Source of the DNA: a virus
Length of the DNA stretch: 64,000 bases
IMG/VR virus record: IMGVR_UViG_3300036715_002050
Span: 64,001-128,000 of that record
Direction: 5' to 3' (one strand)
Under the pieces are notes generated by a model that was not told the origin of the DNA, ran no database searches, and worked only from the letters and a program-made list of their open reading frames with translations. A program made the translations under genes and the position numbers. This document shows, piece after piece, positions 11,662 to 11,804 of the stretch (its first letter is position 1; every line of letters starts with the position of its first letter).

Positions 11662-11804
11662 TCGCGTGTGGTGTAAAAAGTGGACGCACAAGAAAGTAGC
11701 CCAAAGCATTCCGGACAATACTTTTGGTGTACTCTTGTGTCGAAATGAGAAAGCACACTAGCTTGCGGAGCTAGAGGATGTAGGTTCGAATCCTGCCACG
11801 CGGA
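11662..11804 (+). tRNA. tRNA with anticodon GCG (Arg) and a 78-nt D-loop containing a long hairpin
   Basis: TCGCGTG/CACGCGG; D-stem GTGT(11671)/GCAC(11753); CTAGC-TTGCGGA-GCTAG; GTAGG-TTCGAAT-CCTGC. Confidence 0.75.

What the first reader, a model, noticed from the sequence alone, without database searches (positions are those of the whole stretch)
11662..11804. tRNA(GCG) carrying a 78-nt D-loop with a long cargo hairpin
Seen: acceptor, anticodon (loop TTGCGGA) and T-arms are intact, but the D-loop (11675-11752) holds an irregular hairpin (GCACAAGA/TCTTGTGT, AGTA/TACT, CCAAAG/TTTTGG). Established: D-loops are normally about 8-11 nt, bacterial tRNA introns are self-splicing and much longer, and Arg(GCG) anticodons are rare in bacteria. 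Inference: either a ligase-dependent intron at a non-canonical site or a tRNA scaffold displaying a functional RNA domain.
Basis: partly seen in the sequence, partly recalled or inferred. Interest (0 to 1): 0.8.

Follow-up and report, generated by a model that had tools for sequence, protein, structure and literature searches.

The report
Phage arginine tRNA gene with insert
A phage arginine tRNA gene is interrupted in its D arm by a 67-base hairpin-forming insert, giving a 143-base RNA shaped like the unexplained "species 1" RNA of phage T4; whether the insert is cut out, kept or has killed the gene is still open.

Summary
11662-11804 lies inside a 7-kb phage tRNA operon and has an intact acceptor stem, anticodon arm (GCG) and T arm, with a 78-nt stretch between the D-stem halves that folds into a 58-nt hairpin. 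This is not chance. Deleting about 67 nt gives a 76-nt tRNA-Arg(GCG) that ARAGORN calls even at a raised threshold. The same deletion scan found nothing in about 66 kb of control DNA.

New details:
- The insert is bounded by a 5-nt direct repeat (GCACA) and holds a second, degenerate D-arm copy. Its site can therefore be read equally as "in the D loop" or "between positions 26 and 27".
- It has no other copy in the genome.
- No Rfam intron or ribozyme family matches it, and the phage record holds no tRNA-splicing endonuclease or RtcB ligase.
- The predicted fold has the same layout as T4 species 1 RNA (rnaC), but a covariance model of rnaC does not match it.

No relative carrying this gene could be fetched, so conservation is untested, and no RNA data exist.

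Best reading (0.45): a tRNA-shaped stable RNA that keeps the extra arm. Rivals: a ligase-dependent intron (0.25) or a recently disrupted gene (0.25).

This scan has already noted tRNA-shaped phage RNAs and tRNA-shaped introns on other DNA.

The parts
11662..11668 (+). Acceptor stem, 5' strand. It starts one base after the discriminator of the preceding tRNA-Asp.
   Evidence: Pairs 7 of 7 with 11797-11803 (by hand); pair probabilities 0.37-0.61.
11671..11674 (+). D stem, 5' strand (GTGT).
11675..11684 (+). 5' part of the D loop, with the GG (11682-83) expected to contact the T loop, followed by an A at the position of A20.
   Evidence: by hand. That A20 is an arginine identity element is recalled knowledge.
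11685..11742 (+). Hairpin H1 (58 nt): lower stem of 9 pairs with one bulge, then 3 pairs, then 6 pairs, and a 15-nt apical loop containing the palindrome TCCGGA.
   Evidence: No other copy in the genome. Its apical 21-mer is absent from viral contigs and genome contigs.
11686..11690 (+). First copy of the 5-nt direct repeat GCACA.
   Evidence: by eye. Any in-register 67-nt deletion between the two copies gives the same product.
11691..11757 (+). The 67-nt removable segment (equally 11686-11752). Its 3' end (11737-11757) is a degenerate second D arm: GTGT, a 12-nt loop, then GCACA.
   Evidence: Removal gives a 76-nt tRNA-Arg(gcg) by ARAGORN, still called at 110% threshold. The alignment of the two D-arm copies was reached by 4 of 2000 shuffles.
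11753..11757 (+). Second copy of GCACA: the D-stem 3' strand in the full-length fold, plus A26.
11758..11774 (+). Anticodon arm: 5 pairs, loop TTGCGGA, anticodon GCG at 11765-67.
   Evidence: pair probabilities 0.97-0.99; aligned to the anticodon arms of ordinary tRNA-Arg(GCG) genes.
11780..11796 (+). T arm (5 pairs, loop TTCGAAT). A 16-nt stretch, TGTAGGTTCGAATCCT, is identical to the tRNA-Arg(ACG) at 8178-8252.
11797..11804 (+). Acceptor 3' strand and discriminator A. No CCA is encoded; TTT follows.
11589..11660 (+). Context: an uncalled tRNA-Asp(GTC) that abuts the target.
   Evidence: Read by hand. Rfam tRNA-Sec model 31.7 bits, below its cut-off. ARAGORN calls Asp(gtc) only in deletion variants.
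12353..12381 (+). Context: terminator-like hairpin (13 pairs, then a T run) that closes the tRNA operon.
61447..62400 (+). Context: phage RNA ligase gene, the only candidate sealing enzyme in the record.
   Evidence: Pfam PF09414, E = 5.7e-14; phrog_548 RNA ligase, E = 1.3e-20.

Best explanation
The locus is a tRNA-Arg(GCG) gene of a large bacterial virus that has acquired a 67-nt insert in its D-arm region.

I think the most likely course is this. The gene is transcribed with the rest of the tRNA operon. Its ends are cut as for any tRNA: RNase P at 11661/11662 and 3' trimming after A11804, followed by CCA addition. The product accumulates as a roughly 143-nt tRNA-shaped RNA. In that RNA the ordinary acceptor, anticodon and T arms are kept, and a 58-nt hairpin projects from the D loop just after the GG-A that normally docks on the T loop.

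In this form it has the design of phage T4 species 1 RNA (rnaC): a stable RNA at the far end of a tRNA operon whose job is unknown. It probably does not decode on the ribosome unless the arm is removed.

Shown: the gene structure, the predicted fold, the operon context, and that the resemblance to a tRNA is not chance.

Inferred: transcription, end processing, stability, and absence of splicing.
For: - The locus sits in a one-strand tRNA operon that ends at a strong terminator. It abuts tRNA-Asp, so the operon's processing enzymes must cut at its 5' end.
- Full-length fold: the cloverleaf with the hairpin inside the D stem is -39.1 kcal/mol against an MFE of -41.7 and dominates the ensemble. 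The alternative short acceptor and both separate D arms have P about 0.
- T4 rnaC (139 nt) has the same order of parts: acceptor, a short D-like stem enclosing a hairpin of about 60 nt, an anticodon-like arm, and a T arm with GGUUCGAAUCC. It lies last in the T4 tRNA operon. In 5 T4-like phages, 19 of its 46 pairs show compensatory changes. So this design is a selected, unspliced RNA in at least one phage group.
- No splicing apparatus was found. Rfam at E up to 10 gives only two tRNA-clan matches in 11540-12020 and no intron or ribozyme family. The record holds no tRNA-intron endonuclease (PF01974) and no RtcB (PF01139). The insert is a plain hairpin without a CCA-like tail.
- Other units of the same operon also carry enlarged D loops (9978-10058 and 12263-12351).
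Against: - No relative with this gene could be obtained, so there is no conservation or covariation evidence for the hairpin.
- A covariance model of T4 rnaC does not match the locus: only its T arm matches, at 4.8 bits and E about 3.
- Unlike rnaC, which gives 0 loci in the deletion scan, this locus keeps a perfect 7-nt anticodon loop with U33. It becomes a clean tRNA-Arg after one deletion. That fits an RNA that still decodes, or a very recent insertion.
- CGT plus CGC make up 69% of arginine codons in 59 long ORFs, so a working Arg(GCG) tRNA would be useful to the phage.
- Folding z-scores are not significant.
- My covariance model of the locus found no second example. All 154 other matches in 898 kb were 66-91 nt long, and all 9 matches in five related records were 73-74 nt.
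Confidence: 0.45

Rival explanations
1. The 67 nt are an intron with no ribozyme. Host structure-specific RNases cut on both sides, and the phage RNA ligase joins the exons to give a working 76-nt tRNA-Arg(GCG). The duplicated GCACA would let either exon end pair with the GTGT strand of the D stem. Any in-register pair of cuts would then leave a nicked helix ready for sealing.
For: - Exact removal restores a tRNA that ARAGORN still calls at 110% threshold, where 22 of the 29 ordinary array tRNAs pass.
- The exons align with ordinary tRNA-Arg(GCG) genes at up to 56.5 bits.
- The anticodon loop, the GG-A of the D loop and the discriminator A are all in place.
- CGT and CGC are the main arginine codons.
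- An RNA ligase gene is present.
- A second interrupted tRNA lies 290 nt downstream; ARAGORN -i calls it tRNA-Phe with an 86-nt intron.
- Lak megaphages have short unexplained tRNA introns (10.1101/356790, passages read).
Against: - No enzyme is known to cut at these positions in bacteria.
- The insert is neither tRNA-shaped nor CCA-tailed, so cuts by RNase P plus RNase Z would not fall at the repeat. By hand, cutting out the hairpin alone would leave a D loop of about 21 nt.
- No tRNA-intron endonuclease or RtcB is in the record, and no group I signal.
- No spliced form could be looked for, because no RNA run holds the sequence.
- No insert-free DNA allele appeared in the contigs laid.
Confidence: 0.25
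2. The locus is a recently disrupted, non-functional duplicate. Recombination or slippage between similar D arms of neighbouring tRNA genes, at the microhomology GCACA, inserted foreign or rearranged DNA into a redundant tRNA-Arg gene. The 143-nt transcript has no role.
For: - The phage already has tRNA-Arg(ACG), which reads the same codons. It also carries many duplicated tRNAs (3 Lys, 3 Leu-CAA, 2 Gln-TTG, 2 Glu-TTC), which shows active gene turnover.
- The insert is flanked by a 5-nt direct repeat and contains a second, degenerate D-arm copy; the alignment score was reached by 4 of 2000 shuffles. That is the footprint expected of illegitimate recombination.
- The insert is unique in the genome and absent from the collections searched.
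- 80 of 80 other viral stretches with the same anticodon-loop/T-loop pattern hold uninterrupted tRNAs (79 Arg(GCG), 1 Ala).
Against: - All four helices and the conserved loop residues of the exons are intact, while the second D-arm copy is diverged. If that copy arose by duplication, the exons have been kept intact over the same time.
- The full-length RNA is predicted to fold into one compact tRNA-like shape rather than a misfold.
- Near-identical phages in other samples keep the insert, although they are too close to be informative.
Confidence: 0.25
3. A different structural reading: a class II, tRNA-Leu-derived RNA. The long hairpin would be the old anticodon arm with its loop replaced, and the supposed Arg anticodon arm would be an enlarged variable arm.
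For: - The first 32 nt match tRNA-Leu(CAA) at 29623-29704 at 25 of 32 positions without gaps, through that tRNA's anticodon-stem strand CAAGA. The complementary TCTTG lies at 11733-37 (my count, from the sequences).
- That Leu gene is the best match to the exons, at 54 of 76.
- Earlier notes of this scan describe Leu-derived tRNA-shaped phage RNAs (e1-3272660, e1-5751531).
Against:
- The variable region would be 42 nt long.
- The T arm is nearly identical to that of tRNA-Arg(ACG), and both have U1-G72 (by eye).
- The match beyond the D arm is only 3-4 nt.
- Deleting the anticodon arm of true class II tRNAs gave an alternative tRNA call at 110% threshold in only 1 of 8 cases, from 3 variants.
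Confidence: 0.05

Closest known systems
Phage T4 species 1 RNA (rnaC, NC_000866 70908-71046), with rnaD
   Same: - A stable-RNA gene at the distal end of a phage tRNA operon.
- 139 nt against 143 nt.
- Acceptor-like stem, a short D-like stem enclosing a hairpin of about 60 nt, an anticodon-like arm, and a canonical T arm.
- Function unknown (PMC3014915 and PMC9697503, passages read).
   Different: - No sequence or covariance-model homology.
- rnaC has a 10-pair arm with a 6-nt loop instead of an anticodon arm.
- rnaC cannot be turned into a tRNA by one deletion: 0 loci at 110% threshold.
- In the target, 10 nt of normal D-loop sequence flank the hairpin on each side.
'Enigmatic' short introns in tRNA genes of Lak megaphages (Devoto et al., bioRxiv 10.1101/356790; Nat Microbiol 2019, PMC6784885)
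   Same: - A short insert, not a group I intron, in a tRNA gene of a large phage that also carries a suppressor tRNA.
- Removal restores a normal tRNA.
- Mechanism unknown (passages).
   Different: - The Lak introns were predicted with eukaryote settings, which to my recollection place introns in the anticodon loop. One of them is itself tRNA-like.
- Intron-free alleles exist for Lak.
- Here the insert is in the D-arm region, is a plain hairpin, and no allele without it was seen.
- Their Table S6 (intron sequences) is a supplement I could not open.
Group I introns in bacterial and phage tRNA genes
   Same: An intervening sequence in a tRNA gene of a bacterial system.
   Different: - Group I introns sit in the anticodon loop, are roughly 200 nt or more, and have a conserved ribozyme core (recalled).
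- Here the insert is 67 nt and no Rfam intron family matches at E up to 10.
Archaeal non-canonical tRNA introns (bulge-helix-bulge, cut by EndA)
   Same: Short introns at positions outside the anticodon loop, including the D arm; exons joined by a ligase (PMC3241643, abstract seen in the listing).
   Different: - The host is probably a bacterium: a peptide deformylase gene is present, and the best protein relatives are phages of Myxococcus, Ralstonia and Escherichia.
- No EndA or RtcB is in the record.
- The bulge-helix-bulge motif was not tested.
tRNA-shaped introns and tRNA-shaped non-decoding RNAs noted earlier in this scan on other phage DNA (e1-5752030, e1-5761284, e1-3272660, e1-5751531)
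   Same: tRNA genes or tRNA-derived genes in phage tRNA clusters that carry extra folded parts, often in phages with an RNA ligase.
   Different: - Those introns sit in the anticodon loop and run from a tRNA-like first base to a CCA-like tail.
- Those non-decoding RNAs have lost the anticodon loop.
- The target has neither feature.
- These are unchecked AI notes, used only as leads.

Membership tests
Canonical tRNA (Rfam RF00005) | 7-pair acceptor stem, 5-pair anticodon stem with a 7-nt loop and U33, 5-pair T stem with a T-loop consensus | tested here: met
   Read by hand; the exons align to tRNA-Arg(GCG) genes at up to 56.5 bits.
Canonical tRNA (Rfam RF00005) | D arm with a loop of about 7-11 nt; total length about 70-95 nt | tested here: not met
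   78 nt lie between the D-stem halves and the total is 143 nt. ARAGORN makes no call. Rfam passes its cut-off only for the 72-nt part 11733-11804, without a D stem (32.1 against 29 bits). The feature is met only after removing 67 nt in silico.
T4 species 1 RNA (rnaC) family | Match to a covariance model built from T4-like rnaC genes | tested here: not met
   Model R1 (5 sequences, 46 pairs) was run on window 5000-13000 with filters off. Only the T arm of the target matched, at 4.8 bits and E about 3.
T4 species 1 RNA (rnaC) family | Layout: acceptor stem, short D-like stem enclosing a long hairpin, a further arm, a T arm; gene at the distal end of a tRNA operon | tested here: met
   for T4; for the target. 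This is a resemblance of design, not proof of common descent.
Group I tRNA intron | Ribozyme core of about 200 nt or more, sited in the anticodon loop | tested here: not met
   The insert is 67 nt and lies in the D-arm region. No Rfam intron family matches at E up to 10.
Archaeal bulge-helix-bulge intron | Splicing endonuclease (EndA) and RtcB available | tested here: not met
   PF01974 and PF01139 gave 0 matches at E up to 1 in the 137-kb record, which is estimated 85% complete. The host genome is unknown.
Archaeal bulge-helix-bulge intron | 3-4-3 bulge-helix-bulge motif at the exon-intron boundaries | not tested
   I did not search for the motif.
Short non-ribozyme phage tRNA introns (Lak type; 'tRNA-shaped introns' of this scan) | Precise removal restores a canonical tRNA | tested here: met
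Short non-ribozyme phage tRNA introns (Lak type; 'tRNA-shaped introns' of this scan) | Insert lies in the anticodon loop and is itself tRNA-shaped with a CCA-like tail | tested here: not met
   The insert lies between the D-stem halves, or equally between positions 26 and 27. It is an irregular hairpin followed by T-CGA and an A-rich tail.
Short non-ribozyme phage tRNA introns (Lak type; 'tRNA-shaped introns' of this scan) | Intron-free and intron-bearing alleles of the same tRNA exist; the spliced RNA is observed | not testable with these tools
No RNA run is listed.

The most novel reading that the evidence does not exclude
A ribozyme-free, ligase-dependent tRNA intron located in the D arm of a tRNA of a bacterial virus. 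The duplicated D-stem strand (GCACA twice) would let both exon ends compete for the same GTGT strand. Cuts by host structure-specific RNases at any in-register pair of sites would then leave a nicked D stem, which the phage's RNA ligase seals. That would be a third route of tRNA splicing, beside self-splicing and the endonuclease pathway, at a site where bacterial systems are not known to have introns.
Probability: 0.18. Interest if true: 0.85.

Novelty: new variant of a known kind. Interest (0 to 1): 0.5.

Why it matters
Phage tRNA clusters hold RNAs that have gone unexplained for fifty years (T4 RNAC and RNAD) and, in large phages, short tRNA introns with no known splicing route.

This locus sits between the two. 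It has the layout of T4 species 1 RNA, yet it is still a recognisable, decodable tRNA-Arg once 67 nt are removed.

If it is spliced, it shows that the unknown phage splicing route is not limited to anticodon loops or to tRNA-shaped inserts. If it is not spliced, it may be a snapshot of how tRNA-shaped non-decoding RNAs arise from working tRNA genes. One Northern blot or small-RNA library would decide between these.

Tried and rejected
Searches for relatives, all without a usable result:
- blastn of 11400-12100 against the phages collection: no match.
- Exact-pattern search for the anticodon arm plus T loop in viral contigs: 0.
- The neighbouring protein 12417-12989 in viral contigs: 0 relatives.
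- The search for homologous proteins found one 62%-identical relative, P0002, seen on 4 contigs.
- tblastn of two window proteins against the phages collection: no match.
- Seven distant loci found through the protein at 10272-10814 (34-45% identity) have unrelated tRNA sets.
- This scan's own index holds no look-alike stretch.

Sequencing runs: 4 DNA holders were listed and no RNA holder. Laying them showed near-identical contigs with no difference inside the target and no joint that skips the insert. That is uninformative on conservation, and it is no evidence on expression.

Mobile-element idea: the insert has no second copy in the genome. Its apical 21-mer has 0 matches in viral contigs and genome contigs. 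Pfam found no homing endonuclease in 5 array ORFs.

Tandem duplication of a whole tRNA: the two halves, 11662-11732 and 11733-11804, are not similar (878 of 2000 shuffles score as well). The spacer is not similar to the 3' exon either (732 of 2000).

Archaeal-virus idea (36 tRNAs, Arg-GCG, inteins): dropped after tblastn of the 40322-41347 protein gave phages of bacteria as the best hits and a peptide deformylase was found.

Literature searches turned up no description of a hairpin insert in the D arm of a phage tRNA. The Jug-phage paper (PMC12880540, passages read) deals with group I introns in protein genes only. Supplementary tables of the Lak paper (Table S6, intron sequences) were not opened and may bear on the comparison.

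The RNA ligase had no PDB relative by phmmer, so its subtype is not settled.

Full report
**Context.** The window is part of a 137-kb IMG/VR virus record, estimated 85% complete. ARAGORN finds 36 tRNAs in the window, 29 of them in one + strand array from 5541 to 12088. The array ends at a strong terminator-like hairpin at 12353-12381. The host is probably a bacterium. A peptide deformylase gene lies at 4156-4830. The best tblastn relatives of one conserved protein are phages of Myxococcus, Ralstonia, Escherichia and Pseudomonas, at 42-46% identity. The phage is otherwise an orphan: several proteins have no match in the phage collection.

**The observation.**
- a 7-pair acceptor stem (U1-G72 a wobble), U8 and G9;
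- a 4-pair D stem (GTGT/GCAC) whose halves are 78 nt apart;
- A26;
- a 5-pair anticodon stem with loop TTGCGGA (anticodon GCG, U33, G37);
- a 5-nt variable loop;
- a 5-pair T stem with loop TTCGAAT;
- a discriminator A, with no encoded CCA.

The 78 nt consist of 10 nt of ordinary-looking D loop (ending GG-A), a 58-nt irregular hairpin, and 10 A-rich nt. One detail needs correcting. AGTA/TACT overlaps TCTTGTGT by one base, so only 3 pairs can form there.

ARAGORN does not call the locus. Rfam's tRNA model reaches its cut-off (32.1 against 29 bits) only on 11733-11804, with a mismatched 5' strand and no D stem.

**Is it more than chance?** Folding energy says little: z = -1.2 for the whole stretch and -1.1 for the insert. 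I therefore deleted every stretch of 10-140 nt at every position and asked ARAGORN, at 110% of its default threshold, for a tRNA spanning the junction. Calls that overlapped an ordinary tRNA by more than 40 nt were dropped.
- In the 7-kb array only two loci respond: this one (173 variants, deletions of 65-77 nt starting at 11671-11693) and 12094-12256.
- Five 7-kb control stretches and four further stretches of the window, about 66 kb in all, gave none.
- At that threshold 22 of the 29 ordinary array tRNAs pass, so the repaired gene is as good as a typical neighbour.
- A covariance model of the full locus (R2) aligns end to end with ordinary tRNA-Arg(GCG) genes of other viral contigs, at up to 56.5 bits, skipping only the insert.

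The exons are therefore a real tRNA-Arg(GCG).

**New anatomy.**
- The pentamer GCACA occurs at 11686-90 and again at 11753-57. Removing 67 nt in any register between the copies gives the same 76-nt product, which ARAGORN calls tRNA-Arg(gcg). The insert can thus be described equally as lying in the D loop, in the 3' strand of the D stem, or between positions 26 and 27.
- The last 21 nt of the insert (GTGT, a 12-nt loop, GCACA) look like a degenerate second D arm. The alignment of the two copies was reached by 4 of 2000 shuffles. The two halves of the locus as wholes are not similar (878 of 2000), so this is not a simple tandem tRNA duplication.
That fold is -39.1 kcal/mol against an MFE of -41.7. 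Acceptor and D-stem pairs have P about 0.6 and the hairpin core P up to 0.94. The two separate D arms and the short acceptor used by Rfam have P about 0.

**What the insert is not.**
- It has no second copy in the genome.
- Its apical 21-mer is absent from the viral and prokaryote genome collections.
- No Rfam family other than tRNA-clan models matches 11540-12020 at E up to 10, so there is no sign of a group I intron or a self-cleaving ribozyme.
- The record has no tRNA-intron endonuclease and no RtcB.
- Pfam finds no homing endonuclease among five array ORFs.
- It is not tRNA-shaped. It is a continuous irregular helix of about 18 pairs with a 15-nt loop, followed by T-CGA and an A-rich tail.

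**Conservation.** I could not test it. No relative carrying this gene was retrievable. Contigs of four public DNA runs are near-identical. They bridge both junctions (X1 over 11463-12266; X4 over 11672-11822) and show neither a difference in the target nor an insert-free form.

Model R2 found no second example. In 898 kb of phage loci the 154 other matches were all 66-91 nt long. In five whole related records all 9 matches were 73-74 nt. A pattern search for the same anticodon loop and T loop returned 81 viral stretches. All 80 that I examined carry an uninterrupted tRNA, 79 called Arg(GCG) and 1 called Ala. None is a close homologue of the exons; the best is 53 of 76.

**Comparison with what is known.** T4 rnaC (139 nt) is the last gene of the T4 tRNA operon, after tRNA-Arg and rnaD. 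It folds into an acceptor-like stem, a 3-pair D-like stem enclosing a hairpin of about 60 nt, a 10-pair arm, and a T arm with a canonical T loop (z = -4.6). Across five T4-like phages, 19 of its 46 pairs show compensatory changes. Its function is still unknown (PMC3014915 and PMC9697503, passages).

The target has the same layout and nearly the same size, but it is not a member by sequence. A covariance model of rnaC matches only its T arm, at 4.8 bits and E about 3. Unlike the target, rnaC and rnaD cannot be turned into a tRNA by one deletion (0 loci at 110%).

On the intron side, the Lak megaphage paper reports short "enigmatic" introns in phage tRNAs, one of them itself tRNA-like, with intron-free alleles and no known mechanism (10.1101/356790, passages). 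ARAGORN -i calls such a case 290 nt downstream in this same operon: tRNA-Phe at 12094-12256 with an 86-nt insert whose inner part ends in CCA. The phage encodes an RNA ligase at 61447-62400.

**Weighing.** The RNA is almost certainly made, since it lies mid-operon between tRNAs that must be released. Its ends are those of a tRNA. What happens next is open.
- I give 0.45 to a stable, unspliced tRNA-shaped RNA of the T4 species 1 design. The grounds are the favoured fold, the T4 precedent, the enlarged D loops in neighbouring units, and the absence of any splicing signal or enzyme.
- I give 0.25 to a ligase-dependent intron. The grounds are the perfect anticodon loop, the arginine identity positions, 69% of arginine codons being CGT or CGC, the ligase gene, and the neighbouring interrupted tRNA.
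- I give 0.25 to a recently disrupted redundant gene. The grounds are the direct repeat, the second D-arm copy, the presence of tRNA-Arg(ACG), and the locus being a singleton.
- A Leu-derived class II reading is possible but 8.7 kcal/mol worse and poorly supported; I give it 0.05.

**Verdict.** The finding is real and odd, but it is a singleton without comparative or RNA evidence. It is a new variant within two already noted and still unexplained kinds: T4-type tRNA-shaped RNAs and short phage tRNA introns. This scan has reported both kinds before on other DNA.

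Noticed in passing
window 12094-12256: A second interrupted tRNA. ARAGORN -i calls it tRNA-Phe(gaa) with an 86-nt insert in the anticodon loop, and the inner part has its own 7-pair stem, T arm and T-CCA end. The deletion scan also allows a reading as tRNA-Arg(cct) after a 77-82-nt deletion near the D arm, so the boundaries are ambiguous.
   Followed up: partly
window 12263-12351: The last unit before the terminator is a tRNA-like RNA. It has a 7-pair acceptor stem, a small extra hairpin (GCTC/GAGC) in a 25-nt D loop, an odd anticodon loop, an 8-nt T loop and an encoded CCA.
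   Followed up: partly
window 11589-11660: A tRNA-Asp(GTC) that ARAGORN does not call. Rfam scores it only as tRNA-Sec-like, 31.7 bits, below the cut-off. It has one T-stem mismatch and ends one base before the target.
   Followed up: partly
window 11801-11915: The stretch right after the target gives a weak full-length match to the T4 rnaC covariance model (9.6 bits, E about 0.15). It has a hairpin, an arm whose loop GCCAAC recalls T4's GCGUCAAC, and a T-like arm. The match is not significant.
   Followed up: no
window 10035-10896 and the whole genome: A suppressor-type tRNA(CUA) lies at 10826-10896. TAG ends only 1 of 59 long ORFs (TAA 44, TGA 14). The adjacent gene (phrog_14850) grows from 180 to 259 aa if TAG is read as a residue. 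Relatives of that gene lie within 1 kb of a tRNA(CUA) in 2 of 7 other viral loci (L005, L006), with a third tRNA(CUA) 3.2 kb away in L002.
   Followed up: partly
window 51385-53637 and 54587-57100: Two adjacent AAA-type ATPase genes each carry an intein with a homing-endonuclease domain (Hom_end_hint, Hom_end, LAGLIDADG).
   Followed up: no
window 7121-8091: About 1 kb inside the tRNA array has no tRNA, no convincing ORF family and no Rfam match at E up to 5. By eye it is full of stem-closed units.
   Followed up: no
window 5541-5616 and 5915-5988: Two tRNA-Leu genes (CAA, TAG) are only 76 and 74 nt long and lack the long variable arm present in the Leu genes at 23026 and 29623.
   Followed up: no
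window 6565-6637: By eye, a tRNA-Ile(GAT) with C33 instead of U33. Neither ARAGORN nor Rfam called it on the + strand.
   Followed up: no
window 11387-11463: Contigs of two runs join this stretch in the opposite orientation (joints 11387/11462 in X1 and 11398/11451 in X3, with 11 shared letters). This is either an invertible segment or an assembly effect of an inverted repeat just upstream of tRNA-His.
   Followed up: no
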